Virus genome (UHGV): UHGV-0218015
From: a virus
Length of the DNA: 64,000 nt
Reading direction: 5' to 3' (one strand)
Within the stretch, counting starts at the first letter, position 1, and each line of letters begins with the position of its first letter. Made by a program: the position numbers and the translations under genes. Shown piece by piece: positions 29,114 through 56,176 of this stretch. The notes beneath the pieces are model-generated. The model was given only the letters and a program-made list of their open reading frames with translations. It was not told where the DNA came from and searched no databases.

Positions 29114-29318
29114 ACTTGACGGTTTTTCTGGTAATGGAGGCCAAAGCAAACGTTTATCAAGACTTAGTAAACCCAGATCATGAGAACGCGGAGTTGGGCA
29201 TCACTTTCACGTTAGAAGATGATGGATTAAAACCAGTATAATAATCCGCTTATAAAAATGTTGGGGGAGGTGTTTTACCTTCCCAGATCTTTTAGCTCCA
29301 GATAGAGAATTAAATATC

Positions 29319-32300
29319 ATGGCTAAAGCGGTAAAGAAAATACGTTTACACGACTTACATCCGTACACCGGGGATATCGGTGAAGGCGTTTTACTTTTTT
29401 CGAAAGACGAAAAAGATTATAAGTTACCAGTCCGCGAGATCGTTGCGGACATTGACACCGTCAGAAGTGCGGTTGCTGATGCACAAACGGCTGCGGCCAA
29501 ATCACAACAGTCCGCAACAGAAGCTACGAAAGCTAAAGATTTAGCAGAAACAGCGAAGCAACAGACCACCACTTTAGCTTCCACAGTTAATGAGCAAGCG
29601 GGAACCGTCGCCACTAAAACTGCGGAGGTTAACAAAAAACACGCTGAAGTTTTAGCAGCGAAAACTGCCGTAGATACTGTTTCACAATCAGTAAATGAGA
29701 AGGCTCAAGCTGTCGCCGCAAGCGAACAATCTGTGACAGCTGTAGCGGCTGATGTAACTAAGAAAGCAGAAACGGTTACGCAACGGGCCGGACAGGTTCA
29801 ACAGACCGCTACCAGTATCGCAAATACTGCGGCTTCAATTGAGGCCAGTAAGGGCGCGGTGGAGAAGGTTGCTGCGCAGGTTACGAAAGATAAAGAAAGC
29901 TCAGAAGGCGCAGCTACACGCTCGGAGTCAGCCGCTCTGCGTGCGGAGAAAATCGCTGCACAGGGTTTAGTTGACGCTAGTACGACCGGTAAAGGTATCG
30001 TTAAACTTAACAATACCCTGACTAGCGAATCCGTGACGGAGGCTGCCACACCGTCCACGGTTAAACAGCTGAACGACGAATTACAGTTAAAAGCCGATAA
30101 ACATTCGCCGAATTTTACGGGTAACCCGACATCACCAACGCCTCCAAAGGACTCGAATGACACGAGCATCTCCACAACGGCCTGGGTGCGTGCTGCTATC
30201 GCGGAATTGGTTGGTTCTTCACCTGAGACGTTAGATACCTTAGCGGAATTAGCTACGGCGTTAGGTAATGACCCTAACTTCGCAACAACGATTACTGAGA
30301 AACTTGCACAGAAGCAACCTATCAGTCCACTACTTACTGCTATTGCCGCAGTCACAACCGCAGCAAACAAGCTCCCTTATTTCACTGGCACTAATAAAGT
30401 CGGGTTAACTGACTTTACAGAAACCGCCAGAACCTTGTTAGCAAAAGGGACAACTGCGGATATCATCAATTTCTTGGGATTAAAAGCCACTGTAGATAAA
30501 GCGAACTCTGCGTTACAGAAAAACTCTAACGGTGCTGATATCCCCAATAAAGAAACCTTTGCTCGCAATATTGGTCTATCTCCTGATACCTATCTGCGTT
30601 TCCGTGGTGAAATGCCCGCAGATGCTGATATTAACACATTTGCTCCAGATGCCAATTACACAGGAACATGGTCCAAGTCGACATCAACAAACGCATCGAT
30701 AGCAAAACACTTCCCGGAAGACGGTGCGGTAGGTTATCTAGAAGTGTATAAAGCGGGCAACTACAGTGGAGCGCAACGTTTTACCTGCCGTAATGGTAAC
30801 GTGTACAACCGCATGTTGTCAGCCGCGTGGAACGGAACTAATGGCCCGTGGTCACCGTGGAGAATGGTAACTACAGGTGTACGCCCGTTATCTACATCGA
30901 TCGATCTGAACTCCTTAGGCGGCGCTGAGCACATGGGTAACTGGCGTAACTCGTCCAGTTCGTTAGCGGTGTTCGACAGACATTATCCTGAAGAGGGCGG
31001 TAATGCGCAAGGCGTATTAGAAGTCATGGAAGGCGGTCTTTATGGACGTTTACAACGTTACACCACTCGTCGTGGTACGATGTATGTCCGTGGTTTGACT
31101 GCGACTTGGGATTCGTCTAATCCGCAGTGGGAAGATTGGATTCAGGTTGGGTATCAGGTAGACGGTGCCTACTATAAGGGTAGCTTTAACGACTTAACTA
31201 AACCGGGTCGCTTTAGTGTTACCGGCGAGGCTACAGACGGTCCGTTAACAGACTCTGCTGGCGCAACCTTGCTAGGCGTTTGCGAAGTTACCTTACGCTT
31301 AGACGGTTCAGGTGTTGAACAAAATTATACCACATACGGTACAGGCGCAACTTCGAAAGGTCGCAAGTTCCAACGAATTCGTACAGGAAATGCCTGGAGC
31401 GAATGGCGAGAGATTTTCACATCCTATTCACTCCCGTTGGCTTTAGGGATCGGTGGGGTTGCTGCTAAGGTAGATCCGTTAGACTGGCAAACCTTCGACT
31501 TCGTTCCTGGCCAGATGATAAGTACACCATTGAATACCATGAAAAACATTCCTGCGGGAATGGATTGGGGTGTTATCGACGGTAACTTGGTTACTATTCT
31601 TGTAGGGGCGTCGGAGGACACCGGTACTGGCCGGAGTATGTTGGTCTGGCGTGGTACAGTGTCTACTGCTAACTATCGCTTCTTTGCTGTTCGCGTCGCT
31701 GGTGAAAAGGGTAAACGTACTATTACTAGCCGCCAGATGCCCGTATTGAATGCAGCGCATACGTGGGCAGAAAAACAGACCTTTGCAAAAGGGTTATCAG
31801 GTGAGTTAACAGGCAATGCTGCTACGGCAACGAAACTGAAAACAGCCCGTTTAATCGGCGGTGTAAGTTTCGACGGTAGCGGAGACATTAGCCTCCCTGG
31901 TGTAAACCAACAGGGTAATCAAAACACCTCTGGGAACGCGGGAACCGCAACCAAATTACAAACGGCTCGAAACATCAACGGTGTGAAATTTGATGGGTCT
32001 AGAGACATCAATATCAACACGTTGGTAGGACGTGGACGTGTTACTGCACTGACTGGATCAAACAAAGGTACACCCGGTATTCAGATGTACGAAGTTTACA
32101 ATAACGGTTATCCAACCGCTTATGGTAACTTACTGCATTTGGGCGGTTCTGCTGCGCTAGGCGAAGGGGAACTGTTAATCGGATGGTCGGGGACGAGCGG
32201 TGCGCACGCACCCGTTTATATTCGTAGTCGACGTGATACTGCTGATGCGCCGTGGTCAGATTGGGCACAAGTTTATACTGCCCGTGATAGCATTCCTGGT

Positions 32301-33758
32301 GTAAATGCCACAGGTAATCAGGATACTACCGGCAACGCCGCTACCGCGACGAAACTGAAAACCGCTCGCAGGATCGGAGGCGTTAGCTTTGACGGTACAG
32401 GTGATATCAATTTACCGGGCGTTAACCAGCAAGGCAACCAGAATACGACAGGTAATGCAGCGACCGCTACTAAGTTACAAACCGCACGTAAGATCGGCGG
32501 TGTGGTGTTCGATGGGACAAAAGACGTTAATCTTCCTGGTGTAAACCAAACCGGTAACCAATCGACTACGGGGAATGCGGCGACAGCGACTAAGCTACAG
32601 ACTGCTCGAAATATAGGTGGCGTAGCTTTTGATGGTACTAAAGACATCAGTTTACCTGGAGTAAACCAAACAGGGAATCAGTCGACCACCGGAAACGCAG
32701 CCACGGCAACAAAGTTGCAAACCGCAAGAACCATCAATGGTATTGCGTTTGATGGCACTAGAAATATATCGTTAGGGCCAGCCGAAATAGGTTGTCCGGC
32801 ATCACCTAGTGGTTGGTTAGAAACTGGCGCTAATGGCGGTGCAATAACTACAGCACAGCTAGTGACGTTATTGAAAAATAACGGCGCATTTACCACAAGA
32901 TCGTGGGTTGCTCGCTGTGCGTGGGCTTATGCCGCCAGTGCGTCCATACCTCACAGCGAGACGGGTTGTGGTGTCATTCCGTTAGCTGGGGCCGTTATAG
33001 AAGTCATTAGTAACGGCAACAGCACAAACAACTACACGATCCGTATAACGACCGCCACAACGACGAGCGTCGGCGGAGCACTCACTAATGCGGAGTTTAT
33101 CTACGTATTTAACGGCGATGGATACTCACCAGGCTGGCGTCGTGCTTACAATACGAGAAACAAGCCAACTGCTGCGGAAGTGGGCGCGTTACCGTCAGGG
33201 GGCGGTACTGTAGGCGGTGATTTAACCGTTAATGGTAAATTGGCCACTAAATACCCTGATTTTCGAATCGCTTACGGTACCTACGGTTTTATTTTACGTA
33301 ACGACGGTGCCAATACCTATTTCTTAGTAACCGACGCCGGACAAGCCGCAGCGGGTTCCTGGAACGGATTACGCCCGTTGTCTTTTAATAATTCTAACGG
33401 CCAAGTAAACTTTGGACATAACGTTACTGGCAACGGTAACGGTTCGTTTAACGACGTACAGATTCGTTCTGACCGTCGTAACAAACGTAATCTGGTGAAG
33501 CTGGATAAAGCTTTGGATCGGTTAGAGTTACTAACCGGTTATTTGTACGAAATTCAGCATCCTGATGACGGTTGGCAGACTTCTGTAGGTCTAATTGCTC
33601 AGGACGCATTAGAAGCGTTACCTGAACTTGTGTCAGAGGACGACGATGCCATTTCAGGCGAAAAACGTTTACGTCTAAATTACAATGGCGTTATTGCGCT
33701 GTTAGTAGAGGGTATGAAGTCTCTTCGCCGAGAGCTTAAAGAACTCAAGGGGAATTAA
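29319..33758 (+). CDS. long tail fibre protein (1479 aa) with tandem fibre repeats and C-terminal intramolecular chaperone (peptidase S74) domain
   Basis: About six 38-aa repeats GNAATATKLxTAR-IGGV-FDG--DI-LPGVNQ-GNQ; C-terminal SDRRNKRNL...GLIAQDALEALPELV...LNYNGVIALLVEGMKSLRRELKELK matches the S74 autoproteolytic chaperone of endosialidase-type fibres. Confidence 0.85.
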   Translation: MAKAVKKIRLHDLHPYTGDIGEGVLLFSKDEKDYKLPVREIVADIDTVRSAVADAQTAAAKSQQSATEATKAKDLAETAKQQTTTLASTVNEQAGTVATKTAEVNKKHAEVLAAKTAVDTVSQSVNEKAQAVAASEQSVTAVAADVTKKAETVTQRAGQVQQTATSIANTAASIEASKGAVEKVAAQVTKDKESSEGAATRSESAALRAEKIAAQGLVDASTTGKGIVKLNNTLTSESVTEAATPSTVKQLNDELQLKADKHSPNFTGNPTSPTPPKDSNDTSISTTAWVRAAIAELVGSSPETLDTLAELATALGNDPNFATTITEKLAQKQPISPLLTAIAAVTTAANKLPYFTGTNKVGLTDFTETARTLLAKGTTADIINFLGLKATVDKANSALQKNSNGADIPNKETFARNIGLSPDTYLRFRGEMPADADINTFAPDANYTGTWSKSTSTNASIAKHFPEDGAVGYLEVYKAGNYSGAQRFTCRNGNVYNRMLSAAWNGTNGPWSPWRMVTTGVRPLSTSIDLNSLGGAEHMGNWRNSSSSLAVFDRHYPEEGGNAQGVLEVMEGGLYGRLQRYTTRRGTMYVRGLTATWDSSNPQWEDWIQVGYQVDGAYYKGSFNDLTKPGRFSVTGEATDGPLTDSAGATLLGVCEVTLRLDGSGVEQNYTTYGTGATSKGRKFQRIRTGNAWSEWREIFTSYSLPLALGIGGVAAKVDPLDWQTFDFVPGQMISTPLNTMKNIPAGMDWGVIDGNLVTILVGASEDTGTGRSMLVWRGTVSTANYRFFAVRVAGEKGKRTITSRQMPVLNAAHTWAEKQTFAKGLSGELTGNAATATKLKTARLIGGVSFDGSGDISLPGVNQQGNQNTSGNAGTATKLQTARNINGVKFDGSRDININTLVGRGRVTALTGSNKGTPGIQMYEVYNNGYPTAYGNLLHLGGSAALGEGELLIGWSGTSGAHAPVYIRSRRDTADAPWSDWAQVYTARDSIPGVNATGNQDTTGNAATATKLKTARRIGGVSFDGTGDINLPGVNQQGNQNTTGNAATATKLQTARKIGGVVFDGTKDVNLPGVNQTGNQSTTGNAATATKLQTARNIGGVAFDGTKDISLPGVNQTGNQSTTGNAATATKLQTARTINGIAFDGTRNISLGPAEIGCPASPSGWLETGANGGAITTAQLVTLLKNNGAFTTRSWVARCAWAYAASASIPHSETGCGVIPLAGAVIEVISNGNSTNNYTIRITTATTTSVGGALTNAEFIYVFNGDGYSPGWRRAYNTRNKPTAAEVGALPSGGGTVGGDLTVNGKLATKYPDFRIAYGTYGFILRNDGANTYFLVTDAGQAAAGSWNGLRPLSFNNSNGQVNFGHNVTGNGNGSFNDVQIRSDRRNKRNLVKLDKALDRLELLTGYLYEIQHPDDGWQTSVGLIAQDALEALPELVSEDDDAISGEKRLRLNYNGVIALLVEGMKSLRRELKELKGN
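31790..32770 (+). repeat. in-frame tandem coding repeats (about 114 nt units, about 6 copies) inside the tail fibre gene
   Basis: Repeated ACGAAACTGAAAAC/ACTAAGTTACAAACCGC... units encoding NAATATKLQTAR-GGV-FDG. Confidence 0.8.
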
Positions 33759-33799: not shown

Positions 33800-34345
33800 A
33801 TGGGGGTAGCATCCGGCTGGGTTGGAAGCTCAGCAAAGGCAGTAACCGGTCAGGAGTGGATGAGTGTGGCAGGTAATAAGCTTAAACTGAGCACGCCATT
33901 TAACATGTCGCAGATGGTCGGGCGTAGCGTAGAGGATCTTAAACTCGTTGTAGGCCGATCAACCTATGTTGTTTTGGTGCAGGCTACGAACACGCAGTGG
34001 GTTCCTATTACAAATACGTATGGGGGGTATTCGAACAACTCTACAACAACGGGTGCTGGTTCTACAGTATCGAATCGTGTGCAAACACAAAATGCGGCCG
34101 GTTCGGTGTCAGGTTCGATCTTGGGTTGTAGCGTCACACATCTTAGCCAAGTACAAAATACTGGTATTATCTACATGGCCCTAACCAATGGACCAAATCA
34201 GAATATTACGCTTTCGTTTAACGGAACGAAGATTACTTTTCTACCGTACTCCTACAGTAACGGCGTCCGGCGCTATGAGGCTAAGACGGCAACCAACTGG
34301 TTATTTAATCAGAACGGTGCAACAATTTCAATAAGTGTAGTCTAA
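33800..34345 (+). CDS. tail-fibre-module protein (181 aa), paralog of 34599..35105; possible distal adhesin
   Basis: N-terminus MGVASGWVGSSAKAVTGQEWMSVAGNKLKLSTPFNMSQMVGRS shared with the downstream paralog. Confidence 0.5.
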   Translation: MGVASGWVGSSAKAVTGQEWMSVAGNKLKLSTPFNMSQMVGRSVEDLKLVVGRSTYVVLVQATNTQWVPITNTYGGYSNNSTTTGAGSTVSNRVQTQNAAGSVSGSILGCSVTHLSQVQNTGIIYMALTNGPNQNITLSFNGTKITFLPYSYSNGVRRYEAKTATNWLFNQNGATISISVV

Positions 34346-34355
34346 GGACAGAAAG

Positions 34356-34586
34356 ATGTTAAGAAAAGTTTTACTGGGTTTCGCATTGCTTACAGTAAGT
34401 GGATGTCAACAACTACCCGAACCTGTATGTTACGGCACAGCTAAGCTGGGTAATGAAGAGACTACGATCAATATTTTCGACGTAAAAAAGCAGGGCAGAT
34501 ACACACTTTATAAAGCTGATCATCATTATAATTGGCGTTGGGTTGGGCGTGGTGCTTTCGATTCAATAACATGTAGAAAATCTTAA
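34356..34586 (+). CDS. small lipoprotein (76 aa), candidate Llp-like superinfection-exclusion or receptor-blocking lipoprotein
   Basis: Signal peptide with lipobox LTVSGC (MLRKVLLGFALLTVSG-C); located inside the fibre module. Confidence 0.55.
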   Translation: MLRKVLLGFALLTVSGCQQLPEPVCYGTAKLGNEETTINIFDVKKQGRYTLYKADHHYNWRWVGRGAFDSITCRKS

Positions 34587-34598
34587 CAGGAGATCGCG

Positions 34599-35105
34599 AT
34601 GGGGGGGGTAACCGGTTCGTGGGTCGGTTCTTCGGCCAAGAACGAAACGGGCGAACAATGGATGAGCGCTGCTGGTAGTAAATTAGGATTGGGTAGACCT
34701 TTTATGATGAGTCAAATGGTGGGACGATCTATGGGCTGTAAAATTGCAACCGCTGCATATAGCGATTCTTTAGGTAAGAAATGGGGCGCAGTAGGACCAA
34801 GCTGGCCGTTAAACCAGAAAAATCAGGGAACCATTCAAAACGCGGGTAACTGCGGGGTGGGAACTTTAGTAGGTATTGAGTTACAGTTAACGACGATAGT
34901 TGCCAACGCAAAGCCTACTTTAGCGGTTTACTTACAAGGAGGCAGAGCCTCTAACATTACCGTAAATTTAGGTGGTAACACCTGCGCGCTGGCCTATCAG
35001 CAGGTTATTAACGGACAGCATTATTACTGGACTAATAACATCAGCGCTGCGTTCCAAAACGTGATGAAATCGACAGGCGCACTGCGTGATTTGAGAATTA
35101 GCTAA
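34599..35105 (+). CDS. tail-fibre-module protein (168 aa), paralog of 33800..34345; start codon fused to a G8 tract
   Basis: MGGVTGSWVGSSAKNETGEQWMSAAGSKL...MSQMVGRS; ATG followed by GGGGGGG (34601-34608). Confidence 0.5.
   Translation: MGGVTGSWVGSSAKNETGEQWMSAAGSKLGLGRPFMMSQMVGRSMGCKIATAAYSDSLGKKWGAVGPSWPLNQKNQGTIQNAGNCGVGTLVGIELQLTTIVANAKPTLAVYLQGGRASNITVNLGGNTCALAYQQVINGQHYYWTNNISAAFQNVMKSTGALRDLRIS
34601..34608. repeat. G8 homopolymer inside the start of gene 34599
   Basis: ATGGGGGGGGTAACC read directly. Confidence 0.9.
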
Positions 35106-35203: not shown

Positions 35204-35716
35204 GTGGAAAAATTCACACCAGATTTATCACTAACTTCACTTAACATGGTTATTTCACTGGTTAACCATGACCTCCAACTTGACTTGCAAGAGAACGAGG
35301 TTGAAGTCAGTGACGTAAAAACCAGTGATGAAATGGATCGTGACTCCACTGCCATTGTAAAGATTAAACGTCCTGGAAACAGAACGTTGCAAATCTACTA
35401 CAACCGTTTAACCGCAGAGCGGTGGTTAAACCAACAACCTATTCTGGTAAAAGTAAGAGGTGAAGGGTTTAATGCACACGATCTTATCGAATCCGTCAAT
35501 GCCGTTTGTGGTGCTAACTTACAAACCGACGATTTAACCGACCAGTCGTTCACGGTAGGTAAAGACGCGGTAACGCTTAGCATCGCTCCGAATTCCATCG
35601 CTTATAAAGGACAGTTCTCCGTGGTGGTTTTCGGCCCAGATGAAACACCGTGTGGCATCGGTGATGATTCTGTCGTGTTGACGTTTGACAATAAAATCTT
35701 AACTTTTGGAGAGTAG
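35204..35716 (+). CDS. tail-fibre-associated accessory protein (170 aa, GTG start), paralog of 28553..29113
   Basis: TAGGAGGTAAACATAC-GTG RBS; sequence parallels the 28553 gene; directly upstream of the tailspike gene. Confidence 0.5.
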   Translation: MEKFTPDLSLTSLNMVISLVNHDLQLDLQENEVEVSDVKTSDEMDRDSTAIVKIKRPGNRTLQIYYNRLTAERWLNQQPILVKVRGEGFNAHDLIESVNAVCGANLQTDDLTDQSFTVGKDAVTLSIAPNSIAYKGQFSVVVFGPDETPCGIGDDSVVLTFDNKILTFGE

Positions 35717-35719
35717 TAG

Positions 35720-37840
35720 ATGAGTCAGCCAATTGGAAAGAAACGTATCCATGAACTCGACAATTTCTCTGGCGATCTCAAAGGTGCGTTAGTTCTTCTT
35801 TCTAAGGAAGAAAAAGAATATAAAATTGATATTGCAAAACTTCAGGGCACGACGGAGCCGGAGTATTACTTCGTGATTCCTATAGCCGGGCAATCTAATG
35901 CGATGAGTTATGGTGAAGGGTTGCCTCTACCGGCGACGTTGGACGCTCCCGATCCGCGAATTAAACAGATGGCGCGCCGTGCGAAGGTAACGCCTAATGG
36001 GGCTGATTGTAAATATAACGACGTCATTCCAGCGGATCACTGTCTGCACGACGTGCAAGATATGTCCAAATACTCGCATCCCAATGCCAATTTGAGCAAA
36101 GGTGAATACGGATGTGTGGGTCAAGGTCTACATATCGCGAAGCGTCTTCTCCCGTATATTCCTAAGAACGCCGGTATCTTACTAGTACCCTGCGCACGCG
36201 GCGGTTCTGCTTTCACGGGTGGTGCAGAAGGTACCTTCGATGAAGCCACAGGAGCCACTGAGTCGTCAATGCTATGGGGGGTGGAGAAACCGCTTTATAA
36301 AGATTTAGTTAGCCGGACCAAAAAAGCTCTAGAAGTTAATCCTAAAAATAAACTCTTGGCTGTAGTGTGGATGCAGGGAGAGTATGATCTGACTAAAGTA
36401 CAATACGCACAACAACCAGCGTTATTTAACGCAATGGTAGAGCGTTTCCGAACTGATCTCTCTGACCATCTCTCTCAGATGCCCGAGTACGACACCGCCG
36501 AAGTACCATGGATCTGCGGGGACACTACCTATTATTGGAAGGAAAAATATCCTGCCCAATATGAAACCGTATACGGTAATTATCGTAACAATGAACAAAA
36601 AAATATCTTTTTTGTTCCATTCATGTACGACGATAATGGCCAACGTGTACCGACTAATGATCCCACTGACGATCCTGATATCACTGGTGCGGCCTATTAC
36701 GGTGCTGCCTCCCGTACTGTTAAAAACTGGACGTCTGAAACAAGGAATAGCCATTTCAGTTCTTGGGCACGACGCGGTATTATCTCAGAGAGAATAGCTG
36801 CCGAGATATTATCAAGAACAGCGATTGGTGCAATGTTCCTGACGAAGAACGACACTAAGAGCTCCAAAGACAATAAGAATGTGGTAAGAAGCTATACCCC
36901 ATTAGTAGAGTCTGTGGGTTATAACGGACGTCGTGGGGATGGTTCCCTGAAAGGGCAAGGTTGGAACAATATCGTTGATTGTAACGTAACCGTGCAAGAT
37001 TCTGAGGATGGAAACGGGCATTTCGTCGAATTAAGAAAGGCTGTAAAGATGAAACCTTGGAATGTAACTAAGTCAATGACATCTGCTGCGGACATGATAC
37101 GTTACGGTGGACGTCTGACCGTTACTTTTAGACTAAAAGGTGATTTAGCAGCAGATCGTTTCGGATTAGGACTTTATTGGCGTATTTCCGCGTCCGACCT
37201 ACCTTCTGGTACTACATTTGCTGACGCTGGTGTGGCTGAGACGAACCCGTACCTAATGTCTTTTTTCTTACAGACCGACGCTACGAATCTTAATCTGATG
37301 CATCATAAAAAGCAAAATGCGAAATTAGGAACTTTTGGTGCGTACGATAATAACTGGCATACGCTTGAAATCATTTATCCTGGTGCCAATAAAACCACAG
37401 TCACACCTGTGCTGGACGGTACGAATGGTACTCCATTTGATCTGGCGAACAGTCCAGCTAAGACCGATTTGAACGAATTGGTTCTGACGGATATTACGAA
37501 AGTTACTGCCTATGATATCGATATTTCTAAGTTTGAGATCTCGGTCAATCGTGATTCTGGTAGCATAGTGTTATCTGAGGAAGATGTGTCGTCTTATGTG
37601 TATTTCCCACCCACCAACCGTGGCGGCCAACTTACTATTCCTGATCTAGAATATAGTGTGGGCAGAAATATTCAGATCGTGGCAAATAAGGCTGGTAAGA
37701 TCACCGTTAAACCGGAAAATTCAAACGTTCTCATCACTCCAAAGAGTGGGACAGAAGGTCTTGCCAAACCCATTGATACCAATGAAAGTATTACGCTAAT
37801 GCAGATTGGTTCCGATGGTAAAAGCTGGGTAGTTATTTAA
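35720..37840 (+). CDS. tailspike/tail fibre (706 aa) with putative SASA/SGNH-type carbohydrate esterase domain
   Basis: N-terminus MSQPIGKKRIHELDNFSGDLKGALVLLSKEEKEYK parallels the 1479-aa fibre N-terminus; FVIPIAGQSNAMSYGEG resembles the GQSN(M) active-site motif of sialate O-acetylesterase-like esterases. Confidence 0.6.
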   Translation: MSQPIGKKRIHELDNFSGDLKGALVLLSKEEKEYKIDIAKLQGTTEPEYYFVIPIAGQSNAMSYGEGLPLPATLDAPDPRIKQMARRAKVTPNGADCKYNDVIPADHCLHDVQDMSKYSHPNANLSKGEYGCVGQGLHIAKRLLPYIPKNAGILLVPCARGGSAFTGGAEGTFDEATGATESSMLWGVEKPLYKDLVSRTKKALEVNPKNKLLAVVWMQGEYDLTKVQYAQQPALFNAMVERFRTDLSDHLSQMPEYDTAEVPWICGDTTYYWKEKYPAQYETVYGNYRNNEQKNIFFVPFMYDDNGQRVPTNDPTDDPDITGAAYYGAASRTVKNWTSETRNSHFSSWARRGIISERIAAEILSRTAIGAMFLTKNDTKSSKDNKNVVRSYTPLVESVGYNGRRGDGSLKGQGWNNIVDCNVTVQDSEDGNGHFVELRKAVKMKPWNVTKSMTSAADMIRYGGRLTVTFRLKGDLAADRFGLGLYWRISASDLPSGTTFADAGVAETNPYLMSFFLQTDATNLNLMHHKKQNAKLGTFGAYDNNWHTLEIIYPGANKTTVTPVLDGTNGTPFDLANSPAKTDLNELVLTDITKVTAYDIDISKFEISVNRDSGSIVLSEEDVSSYVYFPPTNRGGQLTIPDLEYSVGRNIQIVANKAGKITVKPENSNVLITPKSGTEGLAKPIDTNESITLMQIGSDGKSWVVI

Positions 37841-37845
37841 TTTAA

Positions 37846-37889
37846 ACCGTAGGATGGACTTAGTCCATCCTACGGTTTTTATATTTTTT
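37846..37889 (+). terminator. rho-independent terminator
   Basis: Long palindromic stem CCGTAGGATGGAC...GTCCATCCTACGG followed by TTTTTATATTTTTT. Confidence 0.85.
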
Positions 37890-48860: not shown

Positions 48861-48895
48861 CCCTACTCCCGATAAGGAGTAGGGTAGTTTTTATT
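48861..48895. terminator. terminator hairpin between convergent genes
   Basis: Stem CCCTACTCC / CGATAA / GGAGTAGGG followed by TAGTTTTTATT. Confidence 0.7.
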
Positions 48896-49382
48896 GTTCC
48901 GCAGGATGGAGCATTGTTCCAGTGTCAGACGCTACACCTTCTTTACAGTGGAAGAAAGTAATGCCTTTACCATCACCCGTTTTATATTCTAAAGTAGAAT
49001 ACGCAAACGTTGGCGTTTTTGAAAGTAAGCCATTTACACGATAGTAACGTTGTCCTGTGATAGGATCAATATTCCCATTAACTTTACCTAATAAATCTTT
49101 ATAAAGTTGCGGCGACTCAATCTTGCCGTTTGGCCAAGTGGCTACCCAGTTAGCACCAGTATCGAGTACAGTTACTGACCCTAGCATTATATTAGTCGAG
49201 CTGACGACAGGTTTGTAATTTGCAAAATCTTGCTCTGCACCCATACAGGTGTAAATAACCATATCATGTGGCTCCACCGGCACAGTCGAGAATTGGCCGT
49301 TACCATTCGGTTGTAAGGCACATCCTGCCAATGAAAAAACACCAACCATAACGATAAGAAAACGTTTTATCATACTCTTCAC
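48891..49382 (-). CDS. lipoprotein (163 aa), isolated - strand gene in a + strand region (moron-like)
   Basis: Signal peptide plus lipobox: MKSMIKRFLIVMVGVFSLAG-C; own upstream intergenic region (49383-49514) and downstream terminator. Confidence 0.7.
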   Translation of the reverse strand: MKSMIKRFLIVMVGVFSLAGCALQPNGNGQFSTVPVEPHDMVIYTCMGAEQDFANYKPVVSSTNIMLGSVTVLDTGANWVATWPNGKIESPQLYKDLLGKVNGNIDPITGQRYYRVNGLLSKTPTFAYSTLEYKTGDGKGITFFHCKEGVASDTGTMLHPAEQ

Positions 49383-51387: not shown

Positions 51388-51935
51388 TCATCTTCTCCTT
51401 TAACTAAACCTAGCTCAATTAACAATTCAAAATCGATTTGGCGAAATTTGTTATCAAAACCAGAATCCCAATCGATGTGTAATCCTTGTCGTTCTTCATC
51501 GGTAAGTTCAGGATAAATTAAATCATGGAACGCTTCACGTTCCTCGTAAAATCCATCGATAGTAGAATCTGGATTCCGCATTGCGTAAATCGTGATGCCC
51601 GGAAAGGATAATCCTAATGCTGTTATAGATTCGACGCTTGGTTCTTGCAAGGCCCTGCGTAATAGCACGATTTTATGTCGTGGAAAATCTAGTACACGTT
51701 GTTCAAACCCAGGATTCCGTTTCTCAATTTCTGTAACTGAAAGATCGGTGAGTTCTGTGCAATACATTGGGATAACTACAGTTACTCCGTGGCGAATTAA
51801 TAATCGTTTAACATCGTCAGTGAAGTCTTCACCATTAATTTGCACATAACAACCAAACAATTTTGTAGTTTCTAAAAATTTTTCCAGAAAACGGAATTTA
51901 CGCTTCGTAATATTGTGGATCAGAATTGGCTTCAT
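51363..51935 (-). CDS. hypothetical protein (190 aa) in rSAM/Cys-rich operon
   Basis: - strand ORF overlapping the SPASM rSAM gene end by 38 nt. Confidence 0.5.
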   Translation of the reverse strand: MKPILIHNITKRKFRFLEKFLETTKLFGCYVQINGEDFTDDVKRLLIRHGVTVVIPMYCTELTDLSVTEIEKRNPGFEQRVLDFPRHKIVLLRRALQEPSVESITALGLSFPGITIYAMRNPDSTIDGFYEEREAFHDLIYPELTDEERQGLHIDWDSGFDNKFRQIDFELLIELGLVKGEDECLLLTKA

Positions 51936-53220
51936 CTTTGGTTTCTCTCAATTGTTTTTCTTTCTGGGTACGTTCACGTACGCAACGAGGGCAATAACAC
52001 ATGCTATTGTCATGAAAATCTTTCACTGACGTCGTGCCCATTTTCTGTTTCCAATATTCCGCAACCATCAACTTTGCAGTTGTCCAGCCGCATTGACGGC
52101 GTTCAGCGTGATAAGCTTTGCGATCTTCTAGCGTCCCTTCTCCATTCTCGTAAGATGCAGCCGCACAACTACCACAAGCGTGCTTCATTGGACAACCTAA
52201 ACAGGTTTCAGGATAGTTGGTGTATTGCGTCTGAATCTCTTCCAGCAATTTCCCGTCATCTAAGCTAACGAATTCCCGGCCAACTAATTCAAATACGGCA
52301 GAACGTGATGTTACGGTTGACATGAAACGGTTACAACCGAAGATCTTACGATCAAATCCTAAGCAGGTCATGTGTGTTAACGTACCGCAGAACGGGCGTA
52401 AACGTTCTGGATTCAAACGTACAGTATCGTTATACAATAACTGATCACGCCAGTTTGGTTCCCAGATAGTATCAAAATCTAACCCGTCTGGAATGATGTG
52501 CGACAAAGTGTTACGTGGGTTGGTGTGTAAGCCCTTCTCAACCCAATAATCAACCACGTCCATCATCTGCAATGCGATTGAAGTAGCCATGCTCCGTGGC
52601 ATAATGTCTTCGAAGGTTACGTTGCCAGAAATAGTTCCGCCGCCAGTAATATCAATTAATGATTTCATTCCAGCAGCATAGAACGGTAACGTTTCCAACG
52701 TAAAGGTCGCTTTTACACCAAGTTCTGCAATACCGACTTCTTTTAAGTAGTTATAGCCCCGCACAGCGGCCTCGTAAGATCCTTCACGAGTTGTTGTAAA
52801 AATCCGGTACTTATCGTGCGATTCGGGCAATCCATCAATAGACACGCCGATAGAAAGCCTGTCTTTCCAACGTTCAATAATTTCTCTATTCAAAGGTCTA
52901 TCTAACAACGTTCCGTTAGTAGAGATGCTAAACATAAACGGCCGATTATGTTTTTCGCATAACTCTTCTGCGGTTTCAAATGCCGCCTTTAATAGTTTAG
53001 GCTGCATAAACGGCTCACCACCGATGATATCGATAACGACCTCGATGTTTGTCAGATCTTTATCTCGTTCAAAACAAGCGTGTAGAAAATCAACAATATC
53101 CGCCGCTTTGTTATTACGGGGATACTTACGTTCGTAACAATACTCACAGTCCAAGTTACACGATAAATTTGTAACAATTTGATAAGTCAGTTGTTTTGGA
53201 TAACTATTTTCTTGACTCAT
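51898..53220 (-). CDS. radical SAM enzyme with C-terminal SPASM-like auxiliary Cys cluster domain (440 aa), putative peptide-modifying maturase
   Basis: N-terminal CNLDCEYC (C-x3-C-x2-C), GGEP SAM-binding motif, C-terminal CGTLTHMTC...GC and CLGCPMKHACGSC (C-x2-C-x5-C-x2-C) clusters. Confidence 0.8.
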   Translation of the reverse strand: MSQENSYPKQLTYQIVTNLSCNLDCEYCYERKYPRNNKAADIVDFLHACFERDKDLTNIEVVIDIIGGEPFMQPKLLKAAFETAEELCEKHNRPFMFSISTNGTLLDRPLNREIIERWKDRLSIGVSIDGLPESHDKYRIFTTTREGSYEAAVRGYNYLKEVGIAELGVKATFTLETLPFYAAGMKSLIDITGGGTISGNVTFEDIMPRSMATSIALQMMDVVDYWVEKGLHTNPRNTLSHIIPDGLDFDTIWEPNWRDQLLYNDTVRLNPERLRPFCGTLTHMTCLGFDRKIFGCNRFMSTVTSRSAVFELVGREFVSLDDGKLLEEIQTQYTNYPETCLGCPMKHACGSCAAASYENGEGTLEDRKAYHAERRQCGWTTAKLMVAEYWKQKMGTTSVKDFHDNSMCYCPRCVRERTQKEKQLRETKDEANSDPQYYEA

Positions 53221-54142
53221 TTTCCGCCCCTCTATTACGCTCTGCCATCACTACACGACGAATGTACTCGTAAGCTTCTACACCTATTGAGGAGGCTAGT
53301 TGGTTACACCCTGCTTTTGTAGTTATTGGTACATTTTTAAGTTGGTTTTCTTCCCCGTCCGCGTCTATCCTGAGACTTTCGCTACAGACATTACAAGCAT
53401 GATCGAAGAATCTGTTTACAATAAAACCGCAGTCTCTAGAATTTAGAACGTTTAATCTTTCTATATTCTCCTGAATTCTAAAATACCCGTAAATAAAGTT
53501 CATAACGTGATCGGGAGATAACGGTTTTGGCATGTTTTTATCTAGTAATAAGGACATGGAACGAAAACCGTAATGATAGATAGCAGTATGTAATTGAATG
53601 ATATCTTCATGCCATCTTTTGTTGGATAAATTCTCCCTCGTAACAACAGCCCAAGTGTTAACATTATTCAAGCTGTAAATTACTTCTAACGCTTCATGAC
53701 AATTATCATCAATAAAGCGCTTAAAAGGCCGTTCGGAAAGATTAAACCCATCGATGCTAACATATATAGCATCGAATTGTTTTAACAACGGTAGATGCGA
53801 TTTACGCATTTTTAAACCGTTCGTGAACATCTGGTGTTTGAGTTCAGGACGGATCGTTTTTAATTCGTCGACAAACGCCTCAATCTTTCGAGTTGCCAGT
53901 AGCGGTTCACCGCCAGTCCACTGAATTTCAGTAATGGTTGGGTTAGACGCCAACGCTTTCAAAATTCGTTCACGTTGAAACTCTCGCGGAGAATCTTCAC
54001 GATGCATGTAATAGGCTCCGCCGCAGAAGCTACAGTCCAGATTACATTTGGATGTAGCAACTACGGACAATACGGTGGGTTTATTGTATAAACGATTCGA
54101 TAACCTTGGCTCTACGTCGGTTGTCATTGCAGGTGAGTCCAT
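53204..54142 (-). CDS. radical SAM enzyme (312 aa), paralog of 56177..57091
   Basis: SKCNLDCSFCGG (C-x3-C-x2-C), QWTGGEPLL; C-terminal C-x12-C-x2-C; three nucleotide-identical patches with the paralog. Confidence 0.8.
   Translation of the reverse strand: MDSPAMTTDVEPRLSNRLYNKPTVLSVVATSKCNLDCSFCGGAYYMHREDSPREFQRERILKALASNPTITEIQWTGGEPLLATRKIEAFVDELKTIRPELKHQMFTNGLKMRKSHLPLLKQFDAIYVSIDGFNLSERPFKRFIDDNCHEALEVIYSLNNVNTWAVVTRENLSNKRWHEDIIQLHTAIYHYGFRSMSLLLDKNMPKPLSPDHVMNFIYGYFRIQENIERLNVLNSRDCGFIVNRFFDHACNVCSESLRIDADGEENQLKNVPITTKAGCNQLASSIGVEAYEYIRRVVMAERNRGAENESRK
53457..53539. repeat. 83-nt patch 100% identical to 56421..56503 (between radical SAM paralogs)
   Basis: CTTTCTATATTCTCCTGAATTCTAAAATACCCGTAAATAAAGTTCATAACGTGATCGGGAGATAACGGTTTTGGCATGTTTTT present in both genes; further identical patches 53782..53818 = 56747..56783 and 54002..54055 = 56966..57019. 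Confidence 0.85.
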
Positions 54143-54149
54143 CTATTTT

Positions 54150-55037
54150 TTAAATATAGCCAATGGATAACAAAGGATCGTCGTAAGCGTTAACTCCAGG
54201 TTTTAATACAAACGGTGAATTGTAAGCCTCAATAATACGATTAAGGTCTTTATAACGCACGTTTAAACGTTCTAGATCCGCTAACGTTACGTTACGTTCC
54301 AATACCGCCGACACTGCCGCTTTTTCTTCATCAGTTAACGTGACTTTCGTCATTAAGAAACTAACAAGTTTCGCTAAATCTGCTTCCGATGACGGATGTT
54401 CACCAATACGTGTTTGAATTAAATGCTGCATCCATGGTTTACGAATACGTTTTGTGATTTCATGTTCATCTGTAAGGGCAACCCATACTGAACGTTCACG
54501 ATCCCACATAAATTTGTAACTGTACGCCATCAGATCTGCTAAACAGTTGATGCCAAGTTCCTCGTAACCTTCTATTTCAATATACGGTTCAGTATCAACA
54601 TAGTTTTTTGTTTCTACAGGAACCAGGGCATAAAAGTACGGGAATGAACCAAGATAGTCTGGAGACCACCAACGTCGTGCTACAGGCTTCGCATTCAACT
54701 CTTTAAATGGCGTAAAGAACAATTCCAAATCTACAGAATTATTCAGAATACCGTCACTAAAGAAATATTTACCGTCAACCAATTTACCGCGTAAATCTGA
54801 ATCACCGGTAAACACCACTACGCTTTCTGCTGTCAGATCGCGTATTTTAAAAGTGTTTTCTACTGAATAGTTATTGCGATCGGTAAAAAAACGACCACGC
54901 ACTTTGGGCCATTCGCCAGGTAACTGGGTTAACAAACGAACTTTATCTTCCAAATGAGCGCGTATTGAATCGGGGGAAGAAATATGAAGTGGGTGGTTGA
55001 AAATTGTTTTATAGGCTAAATGCAAATCGTTTTTCAT
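54150..55037 (-). CDS. hypothetical protein (295 aa) in rSAM/Cys-rich operon
   Basis: - strand ORF, 7 nt downstream gap to rSAM gene. Confidence 0.5.
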   Translation of the reverse strand: MKNDLHLAYKTIFNHPLHISSPDSIRAHLEDKVRLLTQLPGEWPKVRGRFFTDRNNYSVENTFKIRDLTAESVVVFTGDSDLRGKLVDGKYFFSDGILNNSVDLELFFTPFKELNAKPVARRWWSPDYLGSFPYFYALVPVETKNYVDTEPYIEIEGYEELGINCLADLMAYSYKFMWDRERSVWVALTDEHEITKRIRKPWMQHLIQTRIGEHPSSEADLAKLVSFLMTKVTLTDEEKAAVSAVLERNVTLADLERLNVRYKDLNRIIEAYNSPFVLKPGVNAYDDPLLSIGYI

Positions 55038-55049
55038 TGATTACTCCAA

Positions 55050-55568
55050 TTATTTTACGGTCAATCTGACGTTCAAGGTATAGAACCCGCCACGCCATTG
55101 CCTGCCGGTAACTTCAAATTCTGCAGTAAAGCCGTTTGATTTACTCGGTTGCTGCTTAATCGCCATGCTTCCGCCGGAATTACTTAATACTTCTAATGAG
55201 ATAGAAGCAGAAGATGCATTACCGATAGAGTCTATCTTAAAACTAGCCGCGTCTGTAAAATTAACAGTGATACCATTACCCATTGCAACTTGAGGGTAGG
55301 CGTAGGACTTTCCAGACAGTAACGATTTAAAGACCCTTATCGGTTTCTCTCTACCGGTTGACGTTACGCATTGAATAAAGACAGCCCCAGTAGAGAAATT
55401 GATACGAACAGTATCTTTAGCGTGTAGCTTAGACTCAACATAAACAACGGCTTTGTTGTCGTAGGTTGGTCTTGAAGGGGTTGGCGTAGAACCACCGCTA
55501 GAGGGCTTACTTACCCCCCCCCGCCCCCTTACTACAGCTACCGCTGCACGACCAACTACATCCGCCAT
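55050..55568 (-). CDS. hypothetical protein (172 aa) with Gly/Ser/Pro-rich N-terminal linker; 5' end overlaps Cys-rich peptide gene C across a G-homopolymer
   Basis: Only in-frame ATG is at 55568, 62 nt inside gene C; N-terminal codons span GGGGGCGGGGGGGGG (C9-G-C5 on + strand, 55514-55528). Confidence 0.4.
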   Translation of the reverse strand: MADVVGRAAVAVVRGRGGVSKPSSGGSTPTPSRPTYDNKAVVYVESKLHAKDTVRINFSTGAVFIQCVTSTGREKPIRVFKSLLSGKSYAYPQVAMGNGITVNFTDAASFKIDSIGNASSASISLEVLSNSGGSMAIKQQPSKSNGFTAEFEVTGRQWRGGFYTLNVRLTVK

Positions 55569-55716
55569 TACAATTATAATGACTTAAAGGTAATCCTGCG
55601 AGATTGTTGGTTGAGGAAACCGTTCCTTGGTTTGCAATATAGTTGTTTGCATTAGCGGTGGTGATATATCCCTCCGCCGTTACTAATCTGTCGCGTATGT
55701 TTTTAAGACTTATCAT
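55507..55716 (-). CDS. Cys-rich peptide C (69 aa): conserved leader plus short C-x-x-x repeat core; putative RiPP precursor
   Basis: MISLKNIRDRL leader; core HYNCNGGCSWSCSGSCSK parallels peptides A and B; starts 3 nt after the stop of peptide B. Confidence 0.55.
   Translation of the reverse strand: MISLKNIRDRLVTAEGYITTANANNYIANQGTVSSTNNLAGLPLSHYNCNGGCSWSCSGSCSKGAGGGK
55514..55528. repeat. homopolymeric tract C9-G-C5 (+ strand) at the junction of peptide C and the 172-aa ORF
   Basis: TTACCCCCCCCCGCCCCCTT read directly from sequence. Confidence 0.9.
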
Positions 55717-55719
55717 TTC

Positions 55720-56118: not shown

Positions 56119-56176
56119 TTTAATACCTACTGGTTTAGTGCCCCCTAGGACACATTATAATTCACTTTCTGTAAAA

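What the first reader, a model, noticed from the sequence alone, without database searches (positions are those of the whole stretch)
34356..34586. Small lipoprotein gene inside the fibre module: candidate Llp-like receptor-blocking / superinfection-exclusion protein
The 76-aa product has a typical lipoprotein signal peptide and lipobox (LTVSG-C). Its size and position between receptor-binding-module genes mirror phage T5 Llp, a small lipoprotein encoded next to the receptor-binding protein gene that inactivates the host receptor.
Basis: partly seen in the sequence, partly recalled or inferred. Interest (0 to 1): 0.5.

Follow-up and report, generated by a model that had tools for sequence, protein, structure and literature searches.

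The report
Cor exclusion lipoprotein in jumbo phage
The small gene is a real, intact member of the known Cor family of phage lipoproteins, which jam the host's outer-membrane receptor from inside so that no further phage can attach; the protein is ordinary, but finding it in a giant phage, next to a fibre-tip adhesin, is unusual.

Summary
The 76-aa ORF at 34356-34586 (+) exists as described, and its lipoprotein signal (Cys17) passes two lipobox rules.

**What it is.** It belongs to the Cor superinfection-exclusion family:
- PHROG 1119, E = 1.3e-25.
- NCBIfam NF047972 "phage exclusion lipoprotein Cor", 69 bits against a cut-off of 31.
- 40-44% identity to the FhuA-blocking Cor of phi80 and N15.

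**What is less ordinary is the context.**
- The window comes from a Chimalliviridae-type jumbo phage. No listed Cor-bearing phage record exceeds 104 kb.
- The canonical J-gp22-gp23 partners of cor are absent.
- cor sits 10 bp after a Gp38_N-type fibre-tip adhesin. That adhesin-cor pair recurs in Stx2 phage 86 relatives (adjacent) and in SSU5-like phage-plasmids (two genes apart).
- The nearest jumbo relative lacks the pair.

**Limits.** The target receptor (FhuA most likely) and any match between Cor and the adhesin are inferred, not shown.

**Verdict.** New member of a known kind, of modest interest.

The parts
34356..34586 (+). cor gene: 76-aa precursor of a Cor-family superinfection-exclusion lipoprotein (the mature protein is 60 aa)
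   Evidence: ORF confirmed. Hits PHROG 1119 at E = 1.3e-25 and NCBIfam NF047972 at 69 bits against a cut-off of 31. Identity is 61.5% to Cor of Stx2 phage 86, 54% to SSU5, 44% to N15 and 40% to phi80. AF2 model has pLDDT 84, about 95 in the mature part.
34356..34403 (+). Signal peptide, residues 1-16 (MLRKVLLGFALLTVSG), predicted to be removed by signal peptidase II
   Evidence: Passes the lipobox rules. This region has low pLDDT in the model.
34404..34406 (+). Codon of Cys17, the residue predicted to be lipidated. The following residue is Gln, so outer-membrane sorting is expected.
   Evidence: Cys17 is nearly invariant in the Cor alignment A1 and aligns with Cys1 of mature Llp.
34428..34574 (+). 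Segment from the Cys25 codon (34428-34430) to the Cys73 codon (34572-34574). This is the predicted intramolecular disulfide that closes the small beta-barrel domain and includes the NWRWV motif.
   Evidence: C25 and the T72-C73 position are nearly invariant. They align with Llp Cys11 and Cys58, which form a disulfide in the crystal structure (PMC9586334).
34344..34348 (+). Ribosome-binding site AAGGA, overlapping the stop codon of the upstream adhesin gene
   Evidence: Read directly from the sequence.
33800..34345 (+). Adhesin 1: a 181-aa Gp38_N-type fibre-tip adhesin, the upstream cassette partner of cor
   Evidence: PF21721 at E = 2.4e-20 and PHROG 1121 at E = 7e-53. Identity is 69% to Stx2-86 gp22 and 50% to SSU5_022. 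All 12 phage records with a full-length relative above 45% identity also carry this cor clade.
34599..35105 (+). Adhesin 2: a 168-aa second Gp38_N-type adhesin, a paralogue of adhesin 1. Elsewhere its type occurs without cor.
   Evidence: PF21721 at E = 1.3e-18. hhalign against the adhesin 1 type gives 99% probability over 137 columns. Identity is 62-63% to 170-aa proteins of the E. ludwigii element and of E. coli p09EL50, neither of which has cor nearby.
29319..33758 (+). Long tail fibre, 1479 aa, with a C-terminal Peptidase_S74 intramolecular chaperone. It presumably carries the adhesins at its tip.
   Evidence: Pfam hits Phage_fiber_2, Gp34_trimer and Peptidase_S74, plus PHROG tail-fibre hits. 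Identity is 77% to the fibre of the E. ludwigii element. The last 110 aa are 69% identical to the fibre of Stx2-86.
35204..35716 (+). DUF7941 virion structural protein, in the same gene string
   Evidence: PF25613 at E = 1.3e-13 and PHROG 2935.
35720..37840 (+). 706-aa protein with a SASA carbohydrate-esterase domain and DUF6645, the last gene of the string
   Evidence: PF03629 and PF20350. Absent from the E. ludwigii relative.
37844..37878 (+). Strong intrinsic-terminator-like hairpin (16-bp stem followed by a T run). It is the likely 3' end of the transcription unit from the fibre gene through cor to the esterase gene.
   Evidence: No sigma-70-like site on the + strand and no comparably strong terminator-like hairpin lies between 33800 and 35070; only a weak 5-bp-stem match at 34751-34764.

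Best explanation
The ORF encodes a Cor-family lipoprotein.

**Proposed steps.**
1. After Sec export, the Cys17 thiol is diacylglycerol-modified.
2. Signal peptidase II removes residues 1-16.
3. [quoted passage not shown]
4. There its disulfide-stapled (Cys25-Cys73) SH3/Tudor-like beta-barrel binds the periplasmic face of an outer-membrane receptor.
5. As shown for T5 Llp, this locks the receptor in a state whose extracellular loops no longer accept phage receptor-binding proteins.

**Target.** The receptor is most probably the TonB-dependent ferrichrome transporter FhuA.

**Biological role.** In this virulent-type jumbo phage the gene lies in the tail-fibre gene string, 10 bp after a fibre-tip adhesin gene. 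It would therefore be made together with the fibres. Its main pay-off would be twofold:
- Keeping progeny from adsorbing uselessly to the infected cell and its debris.
- Shutting out competing phages that use the same receptor.

**What is shown.** The gene is intact, the lipobox is present, Cor family membership is clear, the fold resembles Llp, the cysteine pattern is conserved, and the gene lies inside a receptor-binding module.

**What is inferred.** Processing and localisation, the identity of the receptor, the timing of expression, and whether adhesin 1 uses the same receptor.
For: **Family.**
- PHROG 1119 "Cor superinfection exclusion protein", E = 1.3e-25 over residues 6-75.
- NCBIfam equivalog NF047972 "phage exclusion lipoprotein Cor", 69 bits against a cut-off of 31.
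- tblastn finds 83 phage records. Nearly all the listed annotated ones are called Cor or super-infection exclusion protein, and they include phi80, N15, HK022, ES18 and T1-like phages.

**Lipoprotein signal.** Two independent lipobox rules pass.

**Conserved features.** Cys17, Cys25, the C-terminal T-C and the NWRWV motif are conserved across 14 representatives of 29-57% identity.

**Structure.**
- AF2 model: pLDDT 84, about 95 in the mature part.
- In Foldseek against the PDB, 8a60_B has the best TM-score.
- In BFVD the top hits are the exclusion protein of a T1-like phage (E = 6e-5, TM 0.69) and a T5-like small protein.
- hhalign of Cor against Llp gives 92% probability with all three Cys aligned.

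**Mechanism precedent.**
- Llp is periplasmic, binds the FhuA plug and folds loops EL7 and EL8 inward; it has a Cys11-Cys58 disulfide (PMC9586334).
- Cor and Llp were judged to be one family (bioRxiv 10.64898/2026.03.26.714494).
- AF3 places T1-type Cor on the periplasmic face of FhuA (PMC13164509).

**FhuA as target.** All characterised relatives named (T1, HK022, N15, ES18, phi80) belong to FhuA-dependent phages. The window protein is closer to phi80 and N15 Cor (40-44%) than T1-like Cor is to them (36-37%).

**Operon context.** Intergenic gaps are 10 and 12 bp, no promoter-like or strong terminator-like site lies between the adhesin genes, and a strong terminator follows at 37844.
Against: - **No experiment.** Processing, localisation and exclusion are all untested.
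- **Missing companions.** The two small proteins that accompany cor in FhuA-dependent siphophages (N15 gp22/gp23 type) have no homologue in the 64-kb window.
- **Other targets exist.** Cor/Llp-like proteins also occur in BtuB-using phages, and an unrelated lipoprotein does the same job on LptD. The family name alone does not fix the target.
- **Clade difference.** This clade has a shorter tether between the lipid Cys and the next Cys (7 residues against 10 in phi80 and N15) and HHY in place of YPF before NWRWV.
- **Receptor data for the adhesin type.** SSU5 is the only phage with this adhesin type for which receptor data turned up, and it is reported to need LPS core (Kim 2014, as cited in PMC10972627). 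Adhesin 1 may therefore not bind the protein that Cor blocks.
- **Timing.** Co-transcription with late structural genes would be too late to exclude early superinfection. Promoters of the phage's own RNA polymerases were not searched for.
Confidence: 0.8

Rival explanations
1. It has the same mechanism and family, but the target is not FhuA. In this reading the short-tether Cor clade (this window, the Stx2-86 group and SSU5-like elements) jams a different outer-membrane protein. That would be another TonB-dependent transporter or the protein recognised by adhesin 1.
For: - Cor/Llp-like proteins occur in BtuB-dependent phages (PMC13164509).
- The PNAS 2022 authors expect the jamming mechanism to apply to many TonB-dependent transporters.
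- The clade differs from the phi80/N15 type in tether length and in the motif before NWRWV.
- The FhuA-associated gp22/gp23 companions are absent from the window.
Against: Every characterised relative within BLAST reach belongs to a FhuA-dependent phage. At 40-44% identity to phi80 and N15 Cor, the protein lies inside the divergence spanned by Cor proteins that all act on FhuA; T1-type and phi80-type are only about 37% identical to each other.
Confidence: 0.25
2. It is a passenger gene. cor came in with the adhesin cassette, perhaps derived from an SSU5-like adhesin-023-024-cor string by loss of the two middle genes, and has no functional match to this phage's own receptor. If active, it only excludes unrelated competitor phages that use FhuA.
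For: - In about 24 SSU5-like loci, cor stays behind the 023/024 pair even where the adhesin 1 type is missing. In that lineage cor therefore follows 023/024, not the adhesin.
- cor has a lower GC content (0.39) than its neighbours (0.47), consistent with foreign origin.
- SSU5 is reported as LPS-core specific.
Against: - In the phage collection, every full-length adhesin 1-type gene is followed by cor within about 1 kb, on three unrelated virion backbones.
- The gene is intact, has a good ribosome-binding site, and differs by only 1 aa in 76 in the 225-kb metagenomic relative.
- Adhesin 2-type genes occur without cor.
Confidence: 0.3
3. It is an o-spanin (Rz1-like outer-membrane lipoprotein) or another lysis-associated lipoprotein, not an exclusion factor.
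For: It has the small size and outer-membrane lipoprotein signal typical of o-spanins. In SSU5, cor lies directly upstream of the holin, endolysin and spanin genes.
Against: - There are no hits to spanin families; the only PHROG hit and the only significant NCBIfam hit are to Cor.
- Its neighbours are adhesins, not an i-spanin, holin or endolysin.
- The mature part has only 2 Pro in 60 residues and folds as a compact beta-barrel.
- SSU5 has separate annotated spanins.
Confidence: 0.03

Closest known systems
Cor of lambdoid and N15-like temperate phages (phi80, HK022, N15, mEp167; NCBIfam NF047972, PHROG 1119)
   Same: - Same family by curated profiles, at 40-44% identity.
- Same size, lipobox, three-Cys pattern and NWRWV motif.
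- Encoded at the distal end of the tail and receptor-binding gene block, on the same strand.
   Different: - In those phages cor follows the J tail tip plus the gp22/gp23 pair, with a gap of about 110 bp. Here it follows a Gp38_N adhesin by 10 bp, and gp22/gp23 are absent.
- The tether is 3 residues shorter.
- The host genome is a jumbo phage of a virulent family, not a 40-46-kb temperate phage.
Cor of Stx2-converting phage 86 (gp23) and its relatives (POCJ13, phi296 group), and SSU5_025 of Salmonella phage SSU5
   Same: - These are the closest sequences: 61.5% and 54% identity.
- The same short-tether clade.
- The same upstream partner, a 178-181-aa adhesin of the adhesin 1 type, at 69% and 50% identity.
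   Different: - The virion backbones differ: Traversvirus podophage and 103-kb siphophage/phage-plasmid.
- SSU5 has two extra genes (023 and 024) between the adhesin and cor.
- None of these Cor proteins appears to have been tested experimentally; no paper was found.
Cor of virulent T1-like phages (Drexlerviridae)
   Same: - The same family, with the same presumed FhuA jamming.
- A precedent for cor in a strictly lytic phage, where it protects progeny from debris (PMC13164509; PMC11990801).
- The BFVD structural top hit is a T1-like exclusion protein.
   Different: - Identity is only 27%.
- In T1-like genomes cor is transcribed convergently to the J-gp46-gp47 genes, and it is described as acting early.
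- Here it is co-directional and packed tightly among fibre genes.
T5 Llp (lytic conversion lipoprotein; PDB 8A60, 7QJF)
   Same: - Same architecture: lipid Cys, a short tether, and a disulfide linking the N- and C-terminal ends of a small beta-barrel.
- Best structural match in the PDB.
- Encoded next to the receptor-binding protein gene.
- A virulent phage.
   Different: - No significant direct sequence similarity (BLASTP E = 0.09; profile against the PDB E = 0.1).
- The partner receptor-binding protein in T5 is pb5, not a Gp38-type adhesin (PMC9586334).
Rtp45 / Oekolampad exclusion lipoprotein acting on LptDE
   Same: Shares the general principle: a periplasmic lipoprotein of about 6 kDa, encoded beside the receptor-binding protein, changes the receptor's extracellular loops (PMC12685063).
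   Different: - It targets a different receptor.
- It did not appear among the structural or sequence matches here.
- The similarity is analogous, not demonstrably homologous.

Membership tests
Cor superinfection-exclusion lipoprotein (NCBIfam NF047972 / PHROG 1119) | Scores above the curated family threshold | tested here: met
   NF047972 scores 69.0 bits against a cut-off of 31, E = 2.6e-19, covering residues 6-75 of 76. PHROG 1119 gives E = 1.3e-25. No Pfam model matches at E of 1 or lower.
Cor superinfection-exclusion lipoprotein (NCBIfam NF047972 / PHROG 1119) | Precursor of about 75-80 aa with a signal peptidase II signal and a lipobox Cys | tested here: met
   76 aa. LTVSG-C17 passes the PS51257-type and G+LPPv2 rules. 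The Cys is nearly invariant in the family alignment. Actual processing cannot be tested with these tools.
Cor superinfection-exclusion lipoprotein (NCBIfam NF047972 / PHROG 1119) | Two further conserved Cys (one near the N-terminus of the mature protein, one near the C-terminus) and the aromatic N-W-R-W-V motif | tested here: met
   C25, C73 and NWRWV at residues 59-63 are present and conserved.
Cor superinfection-exclusion lipoprotein (NCBIfam NF047972 / PHROG 1119) | Encoded beside the receptor-binding genes at the end of the tail module | tested here: met
   It lies between two Gp38_N adhesin genes, downstream of the tail fibre gene.
Extended cor cassette of FhuA-dependent siphophages (J, gp22-like, gp23-like, cor) | The two small companion proteins (N15 gp22/gp23 type) lie immediately upstream of cor | tested here: not met
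   tblastn with the phi80, N15, T1-like, SSU5 and Stx2-86 versions finds nothing in the window better than E = 0.02. hhalign finds no relation between the adhesins and gp22/gp23.
Cor superinfection-exclusion lipoprotein (NCBIfam NF047972 / PHROG 1119) | Expression excludes FhuA-dependent phages and inactivates FhuA functions | not testable with these tools
   This needs plating, adsorption and albomycin assays. Only homology to Cor proteins of FhuA-dependent phages is available.
T5 Llp (lytic conversion lipoprotein), narrow family | Significant direct sequence similarity to Llp | tested here: not met
   BLASTP gives E = 0.092 at 22% identity. The Cor profile against PDB sequences has Llp as best hit, but at E = 0.1.
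Cor/Llp superfamily | Shared fold and a shared lipid-Cys plus disulfide architecture | tested here: met
- hhalign: 92% probability over 73 columns, with the three Cys aligned.
- The Llp disulfide is Cys11-Cys58.
- The literature reaches the same conclusion for other Cor proteins.
T5 Llp (lytic conversion lipoprotein), narrow family | Paired with a pb5-type receptor-binding protein | tested here: not met
   The neighbours are Gp38_N adhesins (PHROG 1121), a DUF7941 protein and a SASA esterase protein. None of the PHROG or Pfam hits of the flanking genes is pb5-type.
o-spanin (Rz1-like) | Outer-membrane lipoprotein gene embedded in or adjacent to an i-spanin gene in a lysis cassette, with a proline-rich, largely unstructured mature part | tested here: not met
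   - A lipoprotein signal is present.
- No lysis genes are adjacent.
- The mature part has 2 Pro in 60 residues.
- The fold is a confident beta-barrel.
- There are no spanin family hits.

The most novel reading that the evidence does not exclude
The roughly 0.8-kb pair of adhesin 1 and cor may be a self-contained cassette that both binds a receptor and jams it.

- It would move between unrelated virion types: Stx podophages, SSU5-like sipho phage-plasmids, and this Chimalliviridae-type jumbo myophage.
- The route would be recombination in the conserved Gp38_N linker and the fibre C-terminus.
- If Cor is truly matched to the adhesin, a Gp38-type fibre-tip adhesin recognises FhuA or another TonB-dependent transporter.
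- It would also mean that a nucleus-forming jumbo phage practises periplasmic receptor jamming. Neither has been described, as far as the searches here show.
Probability: 0.3. Interest if true: 0.5.

Novelty: new member of a known kind. Interest (0 to 1): 0.3.

Why it matters
For annotation, the ORF can be named: Cor-family exclusion lipoprotein.

**Biological interest lies in the context.**
- Receptor-jamming lipoproteins are known from small and medium siphophages (T1, T5, lambdoids). Here one sits in a jumbo phage of about 225 kb, related to phiEaH2 and SPN3US, directly behind a Gp38-type adhesin.
- If adhesin and Cor are matched, the cassette predicts this phage's protein receptor. It would also offer a simple rule for reading receptor specificity from fibre-tip modules: an adhesin followed by a small lipoprotein means a protein receptor that can be jammed.
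- That would be useful for choosing phages for cocktails and for anticipating cross-exclusion between phages.
- The case also documents gene flow between temperate E. coli/Shigella/Salmonella elements and a virulent jumbo phage lineage.

Tried and rejected
**Searches that found little or nothing.**
- The search for homologous proteins with the 76-aa query returned only one protein, the 99% identical copy on a 225-kb scaffold. The word index is too coarse for so short a query.
- The search for related loci failed with the 14-sequence alignment because no stretch was conserved enough. With the single protein it found nothing in IMG/VR. A 4-sequence alignment of the closest relatives worked.
- Scans of genome contigs and metagenome contigs found only SSU5-like and Stx-like loci, and no further jumbo-phage copy.
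- Literature searches linking Gp38-type adhesins, Cor and FhuA, or Stx phages and Cor, found nothing relevant.
- The SSU5 receptor paper (PMC3911222) is not held.

**Analyses that were uninformative.**
- dN/dS against distant Cor genes was uninformative because synonymous sites are saturated. Only the near-identical relative gave numbers (dN 0.006, dS 0.020), and they rest on very few changes.
- The sigma-70 promoter scan showed no enrichment. It is of little value for a phage expected to use its own RNA polymerases.

**Hypotheses rejected.**
- I tested whether the adhesins are related to the gp22/gp23 "hand-like" proteins that accompany cor elsewhere. They are not; hhalign probability is below 1%.
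- An o-spanin reading was rejected (see the rival explanations).

Full report
**Observation**

The ORF reported at 34356-34586 (+) is present exactly as described. It starts with ATG, ends with TAA and encodes 76 codons: MLRKVLLGFALLTVSGCQQLPEPVCYGTAKLGNEETTINIFDVKKQGRYTLYKADHHYNWRWVGRGAFDSITCRKS.

- An AAGGA ribosome-binding site lies 7 nt upstream and overlaps the stop codon of the preceding gene.
- The N-terminus passes a PROSITE PS51257-type lipoprotein rule and the G+LPPv2 pattern, with Cys17 as the lipidated residue.
- Gln at +2 implies outer-membrane sorting by the established Lol rule.
- Only 3 of 437 Met-started ORF candidates of 50 aa or more in the window pass the rule.

**Family**

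- The protein matches PHROG 1119 "Cor superinfection exclusion protein" at E = 1.3e-25.
- It matches the NCBIfam equivalog NF047972 "phage exclusion lipoprotein Cor" at 69 bits against a curated cut-off of 31.
- Pfam has no matching model.
- tblastn against 50,697 phage records finds 83 records, nearly all of the listed annotated ones called Cor or super-infection exclusion protein:

| Relative | Identity |
|---|---|
| Stx2-converting phage 86, POCJ13 and the phi296 group | 61.5% |
| Salmonella phage SSU5 | 54% |
| N15 | 44% |
| phi80, HK022 and the mEp phages | 40% |
| ES18 | 36% |
| T1-like phages | 27% |

- An exhaustive HMMER search of 1.84 billion cluster representatives found only 14 relatives.
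- Their alignment shows the lipobox Cys, a second Cys (C25), a C-terminal T-C (C73) and the motif N-W-R-W-V as the conserved core.
- The window protein and its closest relatives form a sub-clade. It has a tether 3 residues shorter between the lipid Cys and the second Cys, and HHY or a variant in place of YPF before NWRWV.

**Relation to T5 Llp**

*Sequence.*
- Direct sequence similarity is not significant (BLASTP E = 0.09).
- A Cor profile picks Llp as the best PDB sequence, but only at E = 0.1.
- Profile-profile comparison gives 92% probability over 73 columns. Cys17, Cys25 and Cys73 align with Llp Cys1, Cys11 and Cys58 in mature numbering.
- Cys11-Cys58 is the disulfide seen in the crystal structure (PMC9586334).

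*Structure.*
- An AlphaFold2 model built on the family alignment is confident: pLDDT 84 overall and about 95 for the mature domain.
- Foldseek against BFVD puts the exclusion protein of a T1-like phage and a small protein of a T5-like phage on top.

*Literature.* This agrees with two recent papers that conclude from predicted structures that Cor and Llp form one family.

**Mechanism**

For Llp the mechanism is solved (PMC9586334):
- The lipoprotein sits in the periplasm, anchored in the inner leaflet of the outer membrane.
- It binds a non-native state of the FhuA plug.
- By reverse allostery it folds loops EL7 and EL8 inward over the phage-binding site.

Cor proteins inactivate FhuA functions (Uc-Mass 2004, as cited). 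AF3 places T1-type Cor at the same periplasmic site.

The best-supported reading is therefore that the window protein does the same. The steps of lipidation, sorting, binding and loop closure are inferred from homology.

FhuA is the most likely target. All characterised relatives belong to FhuA-dependent phages, and the window protein lies within their divergence range.

It is not certain:
- Cor/Llp-like proteins occur in BtuB-using phages.
- The FhuA-associated companion genes are missing here.

**Genomic context**

*The phage lineage.*
- The window is not from a T1-, T5- or lambda-like phage. Its 905-aa portal-like virion protein is 72-73% identical to those of Erwinia phiEaH2 and Asesino and of Salmonella SPN3US-like phages.
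- Those phages belong to the Chimalliviridae.
- The closest DNA relative is a 222-kb circular "plasmid" of Enterobacter ludwigii, at 84% identity over 73% of a 24-kb query.
- A 225-kb metagenomic scaffold carries a nearly identical fibre-adhesin-cor region.
- None of the Cor-bearing phage records listed exceeds 104 kb. Scans of IMG/VR, GTDB genomes and JGI metagenomes found no other jumbo copy.

*The gene string.* The order is:
1. Fibre, 1479 aa with an S74 chaperone.
2. Adhesin 1, 181 aa.
3. cor.
4. Adhesin 2, 168 aa.
5. DUF7941 protein.
6. SASA esterase protein.

The genes are closely spaced, with gaps of 10 and 12 bp on either side of cor, and a strong terminator-like hairpin follows at 37844-37878.

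*Comparison with the E. ludwigii relative.* That element has the same fibre (77% identity) and an adhesin 2 homologue (62%). In place of adhesin 1 plus cor it has a single 261-aa glycine-rich Gp38-type protein.

**The cassette**

*Evidence for an adhesin 1-cor unit.*
- Adhesin 1 and cor are 69% and 61.5% identical to gp22 and gp23 of Stx2 phage 86, which are also adjacent. They are 50% and 54% identical to SSU5_022 and SSU5_025.
- In the phage collection, the 12 records with a full-length adhesin 1-type gene above 45% identity are the same 12 that head the Cor list.
- Adhesin 2-type genes occur without cor in the E. ludwigii element and in E. coli O104:H4 plasmid p09EL50.
- The N-terminal 45 residues of all these adhesins (Gp38_N) are conserved.
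- The DNA encoding that part of adhesin 2 (34620-34754) is 96% identical to E. coli and Shigella SSU5-like phage-plasmids. This points to that segment as a recombination linker.
- cor has a lower GC content (0.39) than its neighbours (0.47).

*Evidence against a strict adhesin-Cor match.*
- About two dozen SSU5-like loci keep cor behind two small genes (023/024, distant relatives of N15 gp22/gp23) while lacking the adhesin 1 type.
- SSU5 itself is reported to need LPS core.
- In the canonical FhuA-dependent siphophages, cor follows J-gp22-gp23. A 2025 modelling paper proposes that gp23-like proteins are the real FhuA binders.
- The adhesins here are unrelated to gp22/gp23.

Whether Cor in this phage protects against its own receptor use, or only against competitors, therefore remains open.

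**Rivals considered**

- An o-spanin is rejected: no lysis neighbours, no spanin hits, a compact fold and few prolines.
- A non-FhuA target and a passenger role cannot be excluded. Both are listed with the tests that would settle them.

**Verdict**

The protein is a new member of a well-known kind.

The modest interest lies in three points:
- Its presence in a Chimalliviridae-type jumbo phage.
- Its pairing with a Gp38-type adhesin instead of the canonical J-gp22-gp23 module.
- The evidence that this pair travels between very different phages.

Noticed in passing
window 33800-34345 and 34599-35105: Two tandem Gp38_N-type adhesin paralogues follow one fibre gene. Their first 45 or so residues are 67% identical and their C-terminal parts have diverged, though the two are still homologous (hhalign 99%). 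This suggests alternative tips on the same fibre, and so dual receptor specificity. The E. ludwigii relative also has two adhesins, but its first is a different, 261-aa glycine-rich type.
   Followed up: partly
window 34620-34754: A 135-bp stretch encoding the N-terminal attachment domain of adhesin 2 is 96% identical to SSU5-like phage-plasmids of about 108 kb from E. coli O104:H4, Shigella sonnei and Escherichia phage CMS-2020a. The rest of the window has no near match to them. It looks like a recombination linker for swapping fibre tips, and it hints at an Escherichia/Shigella-related host pool.
   Followed up: partly
L003 (NZ_CP134650.1, Enterobacter ludwigii 51A:C 'plasmid unnamed1', 222,441 bp circular): The closest relative of this Chimalliviridae-type jumbo phage region is deposited as a complete circular plasmid of a bacterial isolate from a gull cloaca. 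This suggests a carrier or pseudolysogenic state, or a phage co-assembled with its host.
   Followed up: no
window 35720-37840: A 706-aa protein with a SASA (sialate/carbohydrate O-acetylesterase) domain and DUF6645 closes the fibre gene string. It has no DNA match in the E. ludwigii relative. It may be a surface-glycan-deacetylating tail protein.
   Followed up: no
window 29131-29203 versus L003 12313-15321: The E. ludwigii relative carries a gene of about 3 kb, annotated "phage tail protein", just upstream of the fibre gene. It has no counterpart in the window.
   Followed up: no
window 48891-49382 (-): This is a second predicted lipoprotein: an internal Met start at 49373 gives 160 aa beginning MIKRFLIVMVGVFSLAGC. 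It matches PHROG 9559 of unknown function (E = 1.4e-65) and no Pfam family.
   Followed up: partly
window 51898-57091 (-): A cluster of three radical-SAM-type proteins lies on the minus strand, at 51898-53220, 53204-54142 and 56177-57091. Their function in the phage is unknown.
   Followed up: no
L004 6248-6751 (metagenomic scaffold ERZ28646475 scaffold_10): In the 225-kb metagenomic relative, the adhesin 2 gene is 100% identical at protein level over residues 2-168, but the gene caller reported only a 124-aa product. The first codon may differ, or the start may have been called differently. Its Cor differs from the window's by one residue, R65P.
   Followed up: no
L014 and about 24 other SSU5-like loci (IMG/VR, metagenomes): In many SSU5-like elements the side fibre ends in its own S74 chaperone with no Gp38-type adhesin. 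The string of 023-like, 024-like and cor genes is still kept directly upstream of the holin and endolysin genes. In p09EL50 the whole 023-024-cor string is absent. The three genes therefore come and go as a unit.
   Followed up: partly
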